A stretch of 64,000 nt of DNA from the NCBI RefSeq assembly GCF_054482525.1, contig NZ_CM137006.1. One strand, written 5' to 3'. Position 1 is the first letter of the stretch. Each line of letters starts with the position of its first letter. Positions 39,388 through 45,896 of this stretch are shown piece by piece. The position numbers were made by a program, and so were the translations under genes. The notes beneath the pieces are model-generated. The model made no database searches. It worked only from the letters and a program-made list of their open reading frames with translations, and had not been told where the DNA came from.

Positions 39388-40050
39388 TTAAATCGACGTT
39401 CTGCCAAACGCTCCCTGCCAGTCCTGCTCAAACTTCGCCACTGCGGCATCAACCGCCGGATAGCTAATCATCTGTTGTGCCACATCCAGCGGCAGAGTAA
39501 TTGATTCACATCCTGCCAGTAAGCAGTCCAGAGCCTGACGCGGGGTTTTGAAACTCGCTGCCAGCACTTTCGCCTGCGGCGCATGCATTTTCAATAACTG
39601 GTGTAAGTCGGTCACAGTCTGAATACCGCAACCGCCCTGAGCATCAATACGGTTGACGTAAGGCGCAACATATTCCGCACCTGCCAGCGCCGACAGCAGC
39701 CCTTGTGCCGCGCCATATACCGCGGTTCCCAGCGTCGGAATCCCTTCCGCTTTTAACATCTTAATAGCTGCCAGCCCCTCGGCGGTCACCGGAACTTTCA
39801 CCACGATATCCGCAATAATAGAGCGCAGCTTACGCGCGTCATTCACCATCCCTTCAGCAGTGGTAGCCATTACCTGGGCAAACAGACGCCCCTGACCGCC
39901 CATCGCTTCATGAAGTTCCGGAAGCACAACCTCCAGCGGTTTTTTACCCGCGGCGATAATGCTTGGGTTAGTGGTCACACCCGCCAGCGGAAAAATACGT
40001 GACAGCGCCTTCACCGCAACAACGTCTGAAGTATCCAGATACAGTTCCAT
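39388..40050 (-). CDS. fsaA: Fructose-6-phosphate aldolase 1
   Basis: 220 aa from MELYLDTSD; transaldolase-like fold. Confidence 0.9.
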
Positions 40051-40180
40051 AACCATCCTCAAAATGTACTTTTTGTCTGAATGTAGACTATCACGGGAAA
40101 ACTCTCTGAACAGTTGACGCACATCAATCTAACTTTCATTCGAAAGTATTTTAATGTTTGAACGAAACAGAGAGGCAACT

Positions 40181-41080
40181 ATGATTTTCAATATTCAGCG
40201 CTACTCGACCCATGATGGCCCCGGTATCCGCACGGTCGTATTTCTTAAAGGCTGTTCGCTGGGCTGCCGCTGGTGTCAGAACCCGGAAAGCCGCGCCCGC
40301 ACGCAAGATCTGCTGTATGACGCACGACTGTGTCTGGAAGGCTGCGAGCTGTGCGCTAAGGCCGCGCCGGAAGTGATTGAGCGCGCGCTGAATGGTTTGC
40401 TTATTCATCGGGAAAAGTTAACCCCGGAGCATCTGACGGCGTTAACCGACTGCTGTCCGACACAGGCGTTAACCGTGTGTGGTGAAGTGAAAAGCGTTGA
40501 GGAGATCATGGCGACCGTTTTGCGCGATAAACCGTTTTACGATCGCAGCGGCGGCGGCTTAACGCTTTCCGGCGGTGAACCATTCATGCAGCCGGAAATG
40601 GCGACGGCGCTGCTGCAAGCCAGCCACGAGGCCGGCATTCATACTGCGGTAGAAACCTGTCTGCATGTGCCGTGGAAATATATCGCCCCTTCTCTGCCCT
40701 ATATCGATCTGTTTCTTGCCGATTTAAAACACGTTGCCGACGCGCCGTTTAAACAGTGGACCGACGGTAACGCCGCCAGAGTGCTGGATAACCTGAAAAA
40801 ACTCGCCGCAGCGGGCAAAAAAATCATTATCCGCGTGCCGCTGATTCAGGGCTTTAATGCCGACGAAACCTCTGTAAAAGCCATTACCGATTTTGCCGCC
40901 GACGAGCTGCACGTTAGCGAAATTCATTTCCTGCCCTACCACACGCTGGGCATCAACAAATATCACTTACTTAATCTGCCCTATGACGCCCCGGAACAAC
41001 CGCTTGATGCGCCAGAACTGCTCGACTTTGCCCAGCAGTATGCCTGCCAGAAAGGGTTAACCGCGACCTTACGAGGATAA
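40181..41080 (+). CDS. ybiY: Glycyl-radical enzyme activase YbiY (PflE)
   Basis: Radical-SAM activase with Cys clusters; ATG 40181 has a GAGAGG ribosome-binding site (299 aa), while the upstream ATG 40154 (308 aa) has none. Confidence 0.8.
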
Positions 41081-41085
41081 CAACC

Positions 41086-43518
41086 ATGACCACACTGAAA
41101 CTGGACACGCTCAGCGACCGCATTAAAGCGCACAAAAATGCGCTGGTGCATATTGTGAAACCGCCGGTCTGTACCGAGCGCGCGCAGCACTATACCGAGA
41201 TGTATCAACAACATCTCGATAAGCCGATCCCGGTACGTCGCGCGCTGGCACTGGCGCATCACCTGGCGAATCGCACCATCTGGATCAAGCACGATGAGTT
41301 GATCATTGGCAACCAGGCAAGCGAAGTTCGCGCCGCGCCGATCTTCCCGGAATATACCGTCTCCTGGATCGAAAAAGAGATTGATGATCTGGCAGACCGT
41401 CCCGGTGCTGGCTTTGCGGTGAGCGAAGAGAACAAACGCGTTCTGCATGAAGTGTGCCCGTGGTGGCGCGGTCAGACCGTACAGGATCGCTGCTACGGCA
41501 TGTTTACCGATGAGCAAAAAGGTCTGCTGGCGACCGGCATCATTAAAGCGGAAGGCAATATGACCTCCGGCGATGCGCACCTGGCGGTCAATTTCCCGCT
41601 GCTGCTGGAAAAAGGGCTTGATGGTCTGCGCGAGAAAGTAGCGGAACGTCGCTCGCGCATCAACCTGACGGTGCTGGAAGATTTACATGGCGAGCAATTC
41701 CTGAAAGCGATTGATATCGTGCTGGTAGCGGTCAGTGAACACATTGAACGTTTCGCTGCCCTGGCGCGTGAAATGGCCGCGACCGAAACTCGCGAAAGCC
41801 GTCGCGATGAGCTGCTGGCGATAGCAGAAAACTGCGATCTTATCGCCCACCAACCGCCGCAGACTTTCTGGCAGGCGCTGCAACTGTGTTACTTCATCCA
41901 GTTGATTTTGCAGATCGAATCTAACGGTCACTCCGTATCTTTTGGTCGTATGGACCAGTATCTGTACCCGTATTATCGTCGCGACGTTGAACTCAACCAG
42001 ACGCTGGATCGCGAACACGCCATCGAGATGCTGCATAGCTGCTGGCTGAAACTGCTGGAAGTGAACAAGATCCGCTCCGGCTCACACTCAAAAGCCTCTG
42101 CGGGAAGTCCGCTGTATCAGAACGTCACTATTGGCGGGCAAAATCTGGTTGATGGTCAACCAATGGACGCGGTGAATCCACTCTCTTACGCGATCCTCGA
42201 ATCCTGCGGTCGCCTGCGTTCCACTCAGCCTAACCTCAGCGTGCGTTACCATGCAGGAATGAGCAACGATTTCCTCGACGCCTGCGTACAGGTGATCCGT
42301 TGCGGCTTCGGGATGCCGGCGTTCAACAACGACGAAATCGTGATCCCGGAATTTATTAAACTCGGTATTGAACCGCAGGACGCTTACGACTATGCAGCGA
42401 TTGGTTGTATCGAAACCGCCGTCGGTGGCAAATGGGGCTATCGCTGTACCGGCATGAGCTTTATCAACTTCGCCCGCGTGATGCTGGCGGCGCTGGAAGG
42501 CGGTCGTGATGCCACCAGCGGCAAAGTGTTCCTGCCACAAGAAAAAGCGTTGTCGGCGGGTAACTTCAACAACTTCGATGAAGTAATGGACGCATGGGAT
42601 ACGCAAATCCGTTACTACACGCGTAAATCAATCGAAATCGAATATGTCGTTGACACCATGCTGGAAGAGAACGTGCACGATATTCTCTGCTCGGCGCTGG
42701 TGGATGACTGTATTGAGCGAGCGAAAAGTATCAAGCAAGGCGGCGCGAAATATGACTGGGTTTCTGGCCTGCAGGTTGGCATTGCCAACCTCGGCAACAG
42801 CCTGGCGGCAGTGAAGAAACTGGTGTTTGAACAGGGCGCGATTGGTCAGCAACAGCTGGCTGCCGCACTGGCGGATGACTTCGACGGCCTGACTCACGAG
42901 CAACTGCGTCAGCGGCTGATTAACGGCGCGCCGAAGTACGGCAACGACGATGATACTGTCGATACGCTGCTAGCTCGCGCTTATCAGACCTATATCGACG
43001 AACTGAAACAGTACCATAATCCGCGCTACGGTCGTGGTCCGGTTGGCGGCAACTATTACGCGGGTACGTCATCTATCTCCGCTAACGTACCGTTTGGCGC
43101 GCAGACTATGGCAACGCCGGACGGGCGTAAAGCCCACACCCCGCTGGCAGAAGGCGCAAGCCCGGCCTCCGGTACTGACCATCTTGGCCCTACCGCGGTC
43201 ATTGGCTCGGTGGGTAAACTGCCTACGGCAGCGATTCTCGGCGGCGTGTTGCTCAACCAGAAACTGAATCCGGCAACGCTGGAGAACGAATCTGACAAGC
43301 AGAAGCTGATGATCCTGCTGCGCACCTTCTTCGAGGTGCATAAAGGCTGGCATATTCAGTACAACATCGTTTCCCGCGAGACGCTGCTGGAGGCGAAAAA
43401 ACATCCCGATCAGTATCGCGATCTGGTAGTGCGCGTCGCGGGCTATTCCGCCTTCTTCACCGCGCTCTCTCCAGACGCACAGGACGATATCATCGCCCGT
43501 ACTGAACATATGCTGTAA
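41086..43518 (+). CDS. ybiW: Glycyl-radical enzyme YbiW (PflF; pyruvate formate-lyase-like)
   Basis: 810 aa; C-terminal glycyl-radical motif RVAGYSAFF. Confidence 0.9.
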   Translation: MTTLKLDTLSDRIKAHKNALVHIVKPPVCTERAQHYTEMYQQHLDKPIPVRRALALAHHLANRTIWIKHDELIIGNQASEVRAAPIFPEYTVSWIEKEIDDLADRPGAGFAVSEENKRVLHEVCPWWRGQTVQDRCYGMFTDEQKGLLATGIIKAEGNMTSGDAHLAVNFPLLLEKGLDGLREKVAERRSRINLTVLEDLHGEQFLKAIDIVLVAVSEHIERFAALAREMAATETRESRRDELLAIAENCDLIAHQPPQTFWQALQLCYFIQLILQIESNGHSVSFGRMDQYLYPYYRRDVELNQTLDREHAIEMLHSCWLKLLEVNKIRSGSHSKASAGSPLYQNVTIGGQNLVDGQPMDAVNPLSYAILESCGRLRSTQPNLSVRYHAGMSNDFLDACVQVIRCGFGMPAFNNDEIVIPEFIKLGIEPQDAYDYAAIGCIETAVGGKWGYRCTGMSFINFARVMLAALEGGRDATSGKVFLPQEKALSAGNFNNFDEVMDAWDTQIRYYTRKSIEIEYVVDTMLEENVHDILCSALVDDCIERAKSIKQGGAKYDWVSGLQVGIANLGNSLAAVKKLVFEQGAIGQQQLAAALADDFDGLTHEQLRQRLINGAPKYGNDDDTVDTLLARAYQTYIDELKQYHNPRYGRGPVGGNYYAGTSSISANVPFGAQTMATPDGRKAHTPLAEGASPASGTDHLGPTAVIGSVGKLPTAAILGGVLLNQKLNPATLENESDKQKLMILLRTFFEVHKGWHIQYNIVSRETLLEAKKHPDQYRDLVVRVAGYSAFFTALSPDAQDDIIARTEHML

Positions 43519-43526
43519 TCTCCTCG

Positions 43527-43549
43527 GCCCGGCGGCGTCGTCGCCGGGC
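43527..43549 (+). terminator. Hairpin downstream of ybiW
   Basis: gcccggcggcgtcgtcgccgggc. Confidence 0.5.
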
Positions 43550-43663
43550 TAAATCATTCACATAATCAATTCCATCCTTACTTTCATTCGAAATATAATT
43601 TGTGCTCTGCGTCACATTGTTATTACACTGTTACGGTTTCATTTTCGAGCCAGGAGCACACCT

Positions 43664-44479: not shown

Positions 44480-44630
44480 CCTCTCTACCGGAGCCATGCG
44501 CTCCGGTTTTCCCTTCTTTTTACATCCTGTACATCACATCAAATCATTAAACTTGCATTAACTTATTTATAACTTATATTGTCACATGCAAATCATTATA
44601 GTTTCGAATGAAAGTTAATGCGAGGTGGTT

Positions 44631-45896
44631 ATGGCTTCTACTTTTACCAGCGACACATTGCCTGCCGATCACAAAGCAGCTATCCGTCAGATGAAGCACG
44701 CGCTGCGGGCACAGCTTGGCGACGTCCAGCAGATCTTTAATCAGCTAAGCGATGACATTGCTACGCGAGTGGCTGAAATCAACGCACTCAAAGCACAGGG
44801 CGATGCCGTCTGGCCGGTGCTGTCTTATGCCGATATCAAAGCAGGTCATGTTACTGCAGAGCAGCGCGAACAGATTAAACGTCGCGGTTGTGCGGTGATA
44901 AAAGGCCATTTCCCCCGCGAACAAGCGCTAGGCTGGGATCAGTCGATGCTGGACTATCTGGACCGCAACCGCTTTGACGAGGTCTACAAAGGCCCCGGCG
45001 ATAATTTCTTCGGGACGCTCAGCGCTTCACGTCCCGAGATTTACCCCATCTACTGGTCGCAGGCGCAAATGCAGGCTCGCCAGAGTGAAGAAATGGCGAA
45101 TGCGCAGTCGTTTCTCAATCGTCTGTGGACATTTGAAAGTGATGGAAAGCAATGGTTTAACCCGGATGTGAGCGTCATCTACCCTGACCGTATCCGCCGC
45201 CGTCCGCCCGGAACGACCTCCAAAGGTCTTGGAGCGCATACCGACTCCGGGGCACTGGAACGCTGGCTGCTTCCAGCGTATCAGCGCGTTTTCGCCAACG
45301 TCTTTAATGGCAATCTGGCGCAATATGATCCCTGGCATGCGGCACATCGTACGGAAGTTGAAGAGTACACGGTGGACAACACCACCAAATGTTCCGTGTT
45401 TCGGACATTCCAGGGCTGGACAGCGCTCTCTGATATGCTGCCTGGTCAGGGGCTGCTGCACGTCGTGCCTATTCCTGAAGCCATGGCGTACGTACTGTTA
45501 CGTCCGCTGCTTGATGATGTGCCGGAGGATGAACTGTGCGGCGTAGCGCCCGGAAGAGTATTGCCGGTATCAGAGCAATGGCATCCACTGTTGATTGAGG
45601 CGTTAACCAGCATTCCAAAACTCGAAGCCGGAGACTCCGTCTGGTGGCACTGCGACGTCATCCATTCCGTTGCCCCCGTTGAAAATCAACAGGGCTGGGG
45701 CAACGTGATGTACATTCCTGCGGCACCGATGTGCGAGAAAAATCTTGCCTACGCGCACAAGGTGAAGGCCGCACTGGAAAAAGGCGCATCGCCGGGCGAC
45801 TTCCCGCGCGAGGACTATGAAACAAACTGGGAAGGACGCTTTACGCTTGCCGACCTCAACATTCACGGTAAGCGAGCGTTGGGAATCGACAGCTGA
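44631..45896 (+). CDS. ybiU: DUF1479-family protein YbiU
   Basis: 421 aa from MASTFTSD; synteny. Confidence 0.85.
   Translation: MASTFTSDTLPADHKAAIRQMKHALRAQLGDVQQIFNQLSDDIATRVAEINALKAQGDAVWPVLSYADIKAGHVTAEQREQIKRRGCAVIKGHFPREQALGWDQSMLDYLDRNRFDEVYKGPGDNFFGTLSASRPEIYPIYWSQAQMQARQSEEMANAQSFLNRLWTFESDGKQWFNPDVSVIYPDRIRRRPPGTTSKGLGAHTDSGALERWLLPAYQRVFANVFNGNLAQYDPWHAAHRTEVEEYTVDNTTKCSVFRTFQGWTALSDMLPGQGLLHVVPIPEAMAYVLLRPLLDDVPEDELCGVAPGRVLPVSEQWHPLLIEALTSIPKLEAGDSVWWHCDVIHSVAPVENQQGWGNVMYIPAAPMCEKNLAYAHKVKAALEKGASPGDFPREDYETNWEGRFTLADLNIHGKRALGIDS

What the first reader, a model, noticed from the sequence alone, without database searches (positions are those of the whole stretch)
40154..40183. 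Ambiguous start of ybiY (pflE)
The upstream ATG (40154, 308 aa) lacks a ribosome-binding site; the second ATG (40181, 299 aa) has GAGAGG 7 nt upstream. The shorter product is favoured.
Basis: seen in the sequence. Interest (0 to 1): 0.15.

Follow-up and report, generated by a model that had tools for sequence, protein, structure and literature searches.

The report
ybiY starts at the second ATG
The upstream ATG in front of E. coli ybiY is a chance triplet inside the gene's promoter, not a start codon; the real start is the second ATG (299-aa protein), which current reference annotation already uses, so this is an ordinary, settled point.

Summary
Both in-frame ATGs exist (40154, 308 aa; 40181, 299 aa). 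The 308-aa form survives only in older GenBank K-12-lineage records.

Evidence for 40181:
- It has a Shine-Dalgarno (GAGAGG 40170-40175, 5-nt spacer rather than 7; -6.5 kcal/mol). ATG40154 has none (-0.4 kcal/mol).
- In 83 orthologous sequences from about 25 genera, the ATG-ATT/ATC-TTC start and an SD are universal.
- The -27 ATG occurs only in some Escherichia. It is ATA in at least 442 of 5,425 complete E. coli genomes. Other genera have a different base there, frequent in-frame stops, and 1-nt length changes.
- The family model TIGR02494 begins at residue 2 of the short form.

The upstream ATG sits in a strongly conserved non-coding block: an FNR-type site TTGAC-N4-ATCAA (40114-40127; half-sites kept in 83/83), the palindrome ACTTTCATTCGAAAGT (40132-40147; probable YciT operator, with two more copies before ybiV and ybiU) and a -10-like T/A stretch (40147-40157). 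By inference, transcription starts near 40159-40165, downstream of the first ATG. Interest in the start-codon question is low. The FNR assignment is a small untested by-product.

The parts
40154..40156 (+). Upstream in-frame ATG: a spurious start candidate lying inside the promoter -10 region
   Evidence: No SD (-0.4 kcal/mol). Present only in some Escherichia, ATA in L002/L005/L007 and in at least 442 E. coli genomes, AATC in other genera.
40170..40175 (+). Shine-Dalgarno GAGAGG, 5-nt spacer to the ATG at 40181
   Evidence: Sequence. Duplex -6.5 kcal/mol. A GAGG/GGAG/AGGA/AAGG core lies at -16..-4 in 83/83 orthologous sequences, median -7.3 kcal/mol.
40181..41080 (+). ybiY (pflE) CDS, 299 aa, glycyl-radical enzyme activating protein
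   Evidence: RefSeq start maps here. ATG plus MIFNIQR is invariant in the orthologues. TIGR02494 scores 369.8 bits against a 174.35 cut-off, with profile position 1 at residue 2 of this form.
40114..40127 (.). FNR-type inverted repeat TTGACgcacATCAA (9/10 match to TTGAT-N4-ATCAA); inferred activator site
   Evidence: TTGA-N6-TCAA is present in 83/83 orthologous sequences with a freely varying centre. Anaerobic activation and an unidentified activator are reported by Reg-Seq.
40132..40147 (.). Perfect palindrome ACTTTC-ATTC-GAAAGT; probable YciT (DeoR-family) operator over the -35/spacer region
   Evidence: Close to 100% conserved across genera at fixed spacing from the FNR-type site. YciT ChIP-exo peak and DNA pull-down at the ybiY promoter are published.
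40147..40157 (+). -10-like T/A block (TATTTTAATGT). The register is ambiguous: TATTTT, TTTAAT or TAATGT
   Evidence: TTTAAT is at least 90% conserved one-per-genus and at fixed distance from the palindrome and FNR-type site, while its distance to the ATG varies over 31-36 nt. Its function is inferred.
39388..40050 (-). fsaA (fructose-6-phosphate aldolase 1), divergent neighbour
   Evidence: RefSeq annotation mapped to the window.
41086..43518 (+). ybiW (pflF), the glycyl radical enzyme partner of YbiY. It starts 5 nt after the ybiY stop
   Evidence: Function (1,5-anhydroglucitol-6-phosphate cleavage) as cited in PMC12441222.
43580..43595 (.). Second copy of the palindrome (ACTTTCATTCGAAATA), overlapping a TATAAT upstream of ybiV
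44600..44615 (.). Third copy of the palindrome (AGTTTCGAATGAAAGT), 16 nt upstream of the ybiU ATG

Best explanation
ybiY is translated from the ATG at 40181, giving a 299-aa glycyl-radical-enzyme activase that begins [17 protein letters not shown]. Initiation is led by the Shine-Dalgarno GAGAGG five nucleotides upstream. The ATG at 40154 is a lineage-specific chance triplet: the last two bases of a conserved TTTAAT promoter element plus one variable base. It lies in the non-coding ybiY promoter. That promoter is most likely a class II FNR-activated, YciT-repressed promoter, with an FNR-type site centred at 40120.5, an operator palindrome at 40132-40147 and a -10 region within 40147-40157. Transcription would then begin at about 40159-40165, so the first ATG is probably not even in the mRNA. 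Shown here: the sequence features, their conservation, the RBS energies and the annotation. Inferred: the TSS position and the identities of the bound proteins.
For: RefSeq annotates a 900-nt ybiY starting at window 40181 in the 100%-identical strain SCU-102, in a 95.6%-identical strain and in K-12 (NP_415345.2). SD energy is -6.5 against -0.4 kcal/mol. The shared ATG and an SD are present in 83/83 sequences. The -27 ATG is absent outside Escherichia, and many genera have in-frame stops at -6 to -36. The distance from TTTAAT to the ATG takes every value from 31 to 36 nt, while spacing within the promoter block is fixed. The ATA allele is an exact 45-mer match in 442 of 5,425 E. coli genomes, including type strain ATCC 11775. 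In E. whittamii the extension changes 4 of 9 residues through compensating 1-nt indels that preserve AGAGAGG, against 10 of 299 in the body (p=3e-4). TIGR02494 covers residues 11-301 of the long form with profile positions 1-293 of 293. PflA residue 7 aligns to residue 12. The window's own 308-aa sequence is absent from a 15-billion-protein collection, and the K-12 308-aa form occurs only in older GenBank records. For the promoter: the TTGA/TCAA half-sites are 100% conserved with a variable centre. Reg-Seq reports anaerobic activation, a YciT site overlapping the RNAP footprint and an unidentified activator. A second preprint suspects the TSS lies downstream of the one predicted.
Against: No direct experimental mapping of the YbiY N-terminus or of the ybiY transcription start was found. 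The -10 register is ambiguous, and the best-conserved hexamer, TTTAAT, lacks the canonical A at -11. No paper in the searchable library links ybiY to FNR. The simple scan found no terminator between moeB and fsaA, so rare read-through transcripts containing ATG40154 cannot be excluded.
Confidence: 0.93

Rival explanations
1. The 308-aa protein starting at ATG40154 is the true (sole) product, as in the original K-12 annotations.
For: It is the longest ORF from an ATG, and older GenBank K-12-lineage records carry it (BAA35512.1, ACB02025.1).
Against: There is no SD. The ATG is missing in at least 442 E. coli genomes, in E. albertii and in all other genera, where stops and frame-breaking length changes occur. 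The extension lies outside the family profile. It overlaps conserved promoter elements.
Confidence: 0.02
2. Dual initiation: in strains that carry ATG40154, a minor 308-aa isoform is made alongside the 299-aa form, for example from read-through or alternative upstream transcripts.
For: The frame is open from 40154 in about 80% or more of E. coli genomes. No terminator-like site was detected between moeB and fsaA.
Against: There is no SD. The predicted TSS is downstream of it. There is no sign of purifying selection on the 9 codons. The allele is polymorphic.
Confidence: 0.04
3. The conserved TTGA-N6-TCAA and the palindrome serve the divergent fsaA promoter or a regulator other than FNR/YciT, so the inferred TSS (and the argument that ATG40154 is untranscribed) is wrong, although the start codon call stands.
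For: The 130-bp intergenic region is shared with fsaA. YciT ChIP-exo also assigns fsaA as a target. FNR binding here is untested.
Against: The block is retained at fixed spacing in Klebsiella and Raoultella, where the sequence further upstream is unrelated (a hairpin-like GC-rich element instead of the fsaA start). That ties the block to ybiY. Anaerobic activation of the ybiY promoter is reported.
Confidence: 0.2

Closest known systems
E. coli K-12 ybiY / pflE (b0824; NP_415345.2), glycyl-radical enzyme activating protein, TIGR02494 PFLE_PFLC subfamily
   Same: Same gene. There are 16 nt and 4 aa differences from K-12 over the CDS, the same neighbours (moeAB, fsaA, ybiW, ybiV, ybiU) and the same annotated start.
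   Different: Nothing of substance. In the 27 nt upstream, this window has TTT/AAC where K-12 has CTT/AAT.
PflA, pyruvate formate-lyase 1-activating enzyme (PDB 3C8F/3CB8)
   Same: Radical-SAM activase with the CX3CX2C motif a few residues after a short N-terminus. PflA residue 7 aligns to residue 3 of the 299-aa YbiY.
   Different: YbiY carries the additional Cys-rich insert typical of the PFLE_PFLC subfamily (residues about 50-110 are not aligned to PflA) and activates YbiW rather than PflB.
Class II FNR-activated promoters (FNR site TTGAT-N4-ATCAA centred near -41.5), from established knowledge of E. coli FNR
   Same: A 9/10 match to the consensus, half-sites invariant across genera, and 29.5 bp from the site centre to the first base of the conserved TTTAAT, which is the geometry of a -41.5 site. 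Anaerobic activation is reported.
   Different: FNR binding and dependence are untested, the TSS is unmapped, and the -10 register is uncertain.
YciT (DeoR-family) regulon: ybiY, fsaA, ybiV, ybiO (PMC8464067; Reg-Seq preprint 10.1101/2025.05.13.653802)
   Same: Published ChIP-exo peaks and pull-down at the ybiY promoter and a palindromic motif. Here a 16-bp palindrome occurs three times, before ybiY, ybiV and ybiU.
   Different: The published motif sequence is only in a figure, so identity with ACTTTCATTCGAAAGT could not be checked.

Membership tests
Glycyl-radical enzyme activating protein (NCBIfam TIGR02494 PFLE_PFLC) | Whole-protein score above the curated cut-off with full-length profile coverage | tested here: met
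   369.8 bits against a cut-off of 174.35. Profile positions 1-293 of 293 map to residues 11-301 of the 308-aa form.
Glycyl-radical enzyme activating protein (NCBIfam TIGR02494 PFLE_PFLC) | N-terminal radical-SAM CX3CX2C cluster motif | tested here: met
   [13 protein letters not shown] in the translation. It aligns to the PflA motif GCLMRCLYCHN.
Glycyl-radical enzyme activating protein (NCBIfam TIGR02494 PFLE_PFLC) | Adjacent gene for a glycyl radical enzyme substrate | tested here: met
   ybiW (810 aa, annotated as a glycyl radical protein) starts 5 nt after the ybiY stop.
Canonical SD-led bacterial start codon | Purine-rich anti-SD-complementary element 4-9 nt upstream of the start | tested here: met
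   ATG40181: GAGAGG, 5-nt spacer, -6.5 kcal/mol, conserved in 83/83 sequences. ATG40154: not met (-0.4 kcal/mol).
Canonical SD-led bacterial start codon | Start codon and downstream residues conserved in orthologues, with upstream sequence evolving as non-coding | tested here: met
   ATG is invariant. Upstream there are stops and 1-nt length steps.
Class II FNR-dependent promoter | Match to TTGAT-N4-ATCAA | tested here: met
   TTGACgcacATCAA at 40114-40127. TTGA/TCAA kept in 83/83 sequences.
Class II FNR-dependent promoter | Site centred about -41.5 from the transcription start | tested here: inconclusive
   No mapped TSS. The geometry to the conserved TTTAAT fits (29.5 bp), but the -10 register is ambiguous, giving -39.5 to -43.5.
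Class II FNR-dependent promoter | Anaerobic, FNR-dependent activation | not testable with these tools
   Anaerobic activation is reported by Reg-Seq. FNR dependence is not reported in any paper found.
YciT (DeoR-family) operator | YciT occupancy at the site and a match to the YciT motif | tested here: inconclusive
   Published peaks and pull-down at the ybiY promoter and a palindromic motif. Three palindrome copies lie in the cluster.

The most novel reading that the evidence does not exclude
The unidentified anaerobic activator of the ybiYW promoter reported by Reg-Seq is FNR, bound at TTGAC-N4-ATCAA (40114-40127) in a class II arrangement. The 16-bp palindrome ACTTTCATTCGAAAGT, repeated before ybiY, ybiV and ybiU, is the YciT operator. 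Together they would form an oxygen gate combined with a (probably substrate-responsive) repressor for the 1,5-anhydroglucitol pathway, and this architecture is conserved across Enterobacteriaceae.
Probability: 0.6. Interest if true: 0.3.

Novelty: already known. Interest (0 to 1): 0.08.

Why it matters
For the start codon, the matter is only annotation hygiene. The 299-aa form is the one to use for expression constructs and structure prediction of YbiY, and legacy 308-aa entries (W3110, DH10B and similar) should be read as over-extended. The by-product has modest value. YbiW/YbiY were recently tied to anaerobic 1,5-anhydroglucitol catabolism, and their promoter is under active study with an unidentified activator. 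The conserved FNR-type site, and the observation that the predicted TSS should sit near 40159-40165, give a directly testable model.

Tried and rejected
1. The sigma-70 consensus scan gave one promoter-like hit, TTGAAC-16-TATGAT (40158-40185), overlapping the start codon. I rejected it as chance because TTGAAC is not conserved outside Escherichia and 0.4 hits are expected in shuffles.
2. I looked for the Reg-Seq predicted TSS coordinate in the supplements, but ybiY does not occur in the two text files held, so the published footprint positions could not be mapped exactly.
3. I searched for papers linking ybiY/ybiW/pflE/b0824 with FNR and found none relevant.
4. The primary paper on YbiW function (Ma et al.) is not in the library and is cited only through PMC12441222.
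5. One malformed literature query failed.
6. I considered TATTTT (40147-40152) as the -10. Its key -11 position is not conserved across genera, so the register is left open.
7. The FNR-type pattern alone is not significant within one window: 4 matches at up to 1 mismatch against 2.9 expected. Its weight comes from conservation and position only. The same holds for the palindrome at up to 2 mismatches (4 against 2.1 expected), although three of the four hits are intergenic within this one cluster and share the ATTC/GAAT spacer.

Full report
**Observation.** The window carries two in-frame ATGs, at 40154-40156 and 40181-40183, opening an ORF that ends at 41080 (308 or 299 aa). GAGAGG lies at 40170-40175. 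The 20 nt before the first ATG (TTTCATTCGAAAGTATTTTA) have no purine-rich element. Duplex energy with the 3' end of 16S rRNA is -0.4 kcal/mol for ATG40154, weaker than at 94% of all 2,015 ATG triplets in the window. For ATG40181 it is -6.5 kcal/mol, similar to the neighbouring genes ybiW (-5.9) and ybiV (-6.6).

**Identity and current annotation.** The region is the E. coli moeA-moeB / fsaA / ybiY-ybiW-ybiV-ybiU locus. It is 100% identical to strain SCU-102 and is present in 5,425 of 5,426 complete E. coli genomes. RefSeq annotates ybiY as 900 nt in SCU-102, in the most divergent listed strain (ETEC6335) and in K-12 MG1655 (NP_415345.2). Mapped to the window, that start is 40181. An exact-sequence look-up shows that the K-12 308-aa form exists only in older GenBank records (W3110 BAA35512.1, DH10B ACB02025.1 and others; 17 contigs). 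The 299-aa forms occur on hundreds to over a thousand contigs, and the window's own 308-aa translation is not in the 15-billion-protein collection at all. The ambiguity is therefore a legacy of longest-ORF annotation and has already been resolved in the reference databases.

I fetched 80 orthologous loci from one-genome-per-species GTDB contigs. They cover Escherichia, Citrobacter, Salmonella, Enterobacter, Klebsiella, Raoultella, Kluyvera, Kosakonia, Lelliottia, Leclercia, Trabulsiella, Yokenella, Phytobacter and others, at 76-97% protein identity.
- In all 83 sequences (including three E. coli), the shared ATG is followed by ATT/ATC TTC AAT/AAC ATT CAG CGC (MIFNIQR).
- The -27 ATG is found only in E. 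coli, E. whittamii and Escherichia sp. E1V33. It is ATA in E. albertii, Escherichia sp. MOD1-EC7003 and E. coli ETEC6335, and AATC in nearly every other genus.
- Most non-Escherichia sequences have an in-frame stop 6-36 nt upstream of the shared ATG.
- 24 of the 83 have some other in-frame upstream start at inconsistent positions, which is what chance produces.
- The distance from the conserved TTTAAT element to the shared ATG takes every value from 31 to 36 nt, so the intervening stretch tolerates single-nucleotide length changes and cannot be coding.
- Within Escherichia, the extension of E. whittamii differs at 4 of 9 residues through two compensating 1-nt indels that preserve the AGAGAGG block, against 10 of 299 residues in the body (Fisher p=3e-4). 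For E. albertii the figures are 3 of 9 against 10 of 299 (p=0.004).
- Within E. coli, exact 45-mer searches centred on the variable base find the ATA allele in 442 complete genomes (including type strain ATCC 11775 and an O157:H7), the window's ATG allele in 3,287 and the K-12 allele in 1,165 of 5,425.
- An SD core is present at -16..-4 of the shared ATG in 83/83 sequences, with a median duplex energy of -7.3 kcal/mol.

**Protein-family boundary.** NCBIfam TIGR02494 (glycyl-radical enzyme activating protein, 293 positions) matches end to end, with profile position 1 at residue 11 of the 308-aa form, which is residue 2 of the 299-aa form. PflA (PDB 3C8F) residue 7 aligns to residue 12. The nine extra residues lie outside anything conserved in the family.

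**What the upstream ATG really sits in.** Aligning the intergenic region, both across all sequences and as one sequence per genus, shows a strongly conserved non-coding block.
- **FNR-type site.** TTGAC-gcac-ATCAA lies at 40114-40127. The TTGA and TCAA half-sites are invariant in 83/83 sequences, while the centre varies freely (40-70% conservation). That is the signature of a dimeric CRP/FNR-family site, and it is of FNR type (TTGA rather than GTGA).
- **Palindrome.** A perfect 16-bp palindrome, ACTTTC-ATTC-GAAAGT, lies at 40132-40147. It is about 100% conserved and sits at a fixed spacing from the first site (the measured gap is 5 nt in 79 of the 80 sequences where the search pattern found the palindrome).
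- **-10-like stretch.** A T/A stretch at 40147-40157 contains the near-invariant TTTAAT (40150-40155).

The upstream "ATG" is the AT of TTTAAT plus the next base. That base is the least conserved position in the block: C in most genera, A or G in Escherichia.

The block keeps this form in Klebsiella and Raoultella, where the sequence further upstream is unrelated, so it belongs to ybiY rather than to fsaA.

The centre of the FNR-type site (40120.5) is 29.5 bp from the first base of TTTAAT, which is exactly the geometry of a class II site at -41.5 with a TSS near 40162. The register is uncertain, however. TTTAAT lacks the canonical A at -11, and the alternatives TATTTT (40147-40152) and TAATGT (40152-40157) are possible. 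All three registers place the TSS between about 40159 and 40165, downstream of the A of ATG40154. This step is inference, and no mapped TSS was found.

**Published data fit this picture.**
- Reg-Seq (bioRxiv 10.1101/2025.05.13.653802) found the ybiYW promoter active only anaerobically. It pulled down YciT on a site overlapping the RNAP footprint and saw an activator footprint with no candidate factor. The lysates were from aerobic cultures, in which FNR is inactive.
- A companion preprint (10.64898/2026.05.18.726006) reports activator-like coupling at -30..-15 and strong coupling at 0..+20 relative to a predicted TSS. Its authors suspect that TSS is misassigned. Both signals would coincide with the FNR-type site and the -10 block if their predicted TSS is near 40141-40143. 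I could not verify that coordinate.
- ChIP-exo (PMC8464067) shows YciT peaks upstream of ybiUVWY and fsaA, with a palindromic motif.
- The palindrome recurs at 43580-43595, overlapping a TATAAT before ybiV, and at 44600-44615, 16 nt before the ybiU ATG.
- No paper in the library links ybiY to FNR.
- Physiologically, an FNR gate makes sense. YbiW is an oxygen-sensitive glycyl radical enzyme that cleaves 1,5-anhydroglucitol-6-phosphate to 1-deoxyfructose-6-phosphate (Ma et al., as cited in PMC12441222). That also explains the adjacent aldolase gene fsaA.

**Verdict.** The result is ordinary and already embodied in RefSeq, so interest is low. The only thing of any novelty is the by-product hypothesis that the unidentified anaerobic activator at the ybiY promoter is FNR, acting with a YciT operator, with the spurious ATG embedded in the -10 region.

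**Residual uncertainties.**
- There is no direct N-terminal or TSS mapping.
- The -10 register is ambiguous.
- The simple scan found no terminator between moeB and fsaA, so rare read-through transcripts carrying ATG40154 cannot be excluded. Without an SD they would initiate poorly there.

Noticed in passing
window 40114-40127: FNR-type site TTGACgcacATCAA in the fsaA-ybiY intergenic region. The TTGA/TCAA half-sites are invariant in 83/83 orthologous sequences with a variable centre. No paper found links ybiY to FNR, and Reg-Seq reports an unidentified anaerobic activator here.
   Followed up: partly
window 40132-40147, 43580-43595, 44600-44615: A 16-bp palindrome, ACTTTCATTCGAAAGT, occurs three times (0, 2 and 1 mismatches), each in an intergenic region before ybiY, ybiV or ybiU and with the same ATTC/GAAT spacer. 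It is the probable YciT (DeoR-family) operator. The ybiV copy overlaps a perfect TATAAT (43593-43598).
   Followed up: partly
window 44625-44633: ybiU has a similar start ambiguity. The mechanical ORF starts at GTG 44625 (423 aa), but the K-12 annotation length (1,266 nt) corresponds to ATG 44631, which has GAGG upstream.
   Followed up: no
window 40050-40122 (- strand): The mechanical ORF for fsaA starts at GTG 40122 (244 aa), whereas RefSeq starts at the ATG at 40050 (220 aa, MELYLD...) with a GAGGA SD. The 24-codon extension would run through the FNR-type site and is likewise spurious.
   Followed up: partly
window 41064-41088: The ybiY stop (TAA 41078-41080) is 5 nt from the ybiW ATG (41086), and the ybiW SD (GAGGA) lies inside the last ybiY codons. 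This suggests translational coupling of activase and glycyl radical enzyme.
   Followed up: no
window 43526-43552: A GC-rich hairpin (GGCCCGGCGGCGTCGTCGCCGGGC) lies directly after ybiW, followed by what looks like a separate ybiV promoter. ybiV and ybiU may therefore be transcribed separately from ybiYW.
   Followed up: no
E. coli genome search: Five of the 5,426 matching places are on records labelled as plasmids, one genome has two copies, and one complete E. coli genome lacks the region.
   Followed up: no
window 40156-40175 and orthologues: The stretch just after TTTAAT (consensus CTTCATA[CT]G[CA]AA in most genera, GTTTGAACGAAAC in E. coli) is also fairly well conserved (60-100% per column), more than expected for a plain 5' leader. 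The reason is unknown; it could be the initial transcribed region or a further operator half-site.
   Followed up: no
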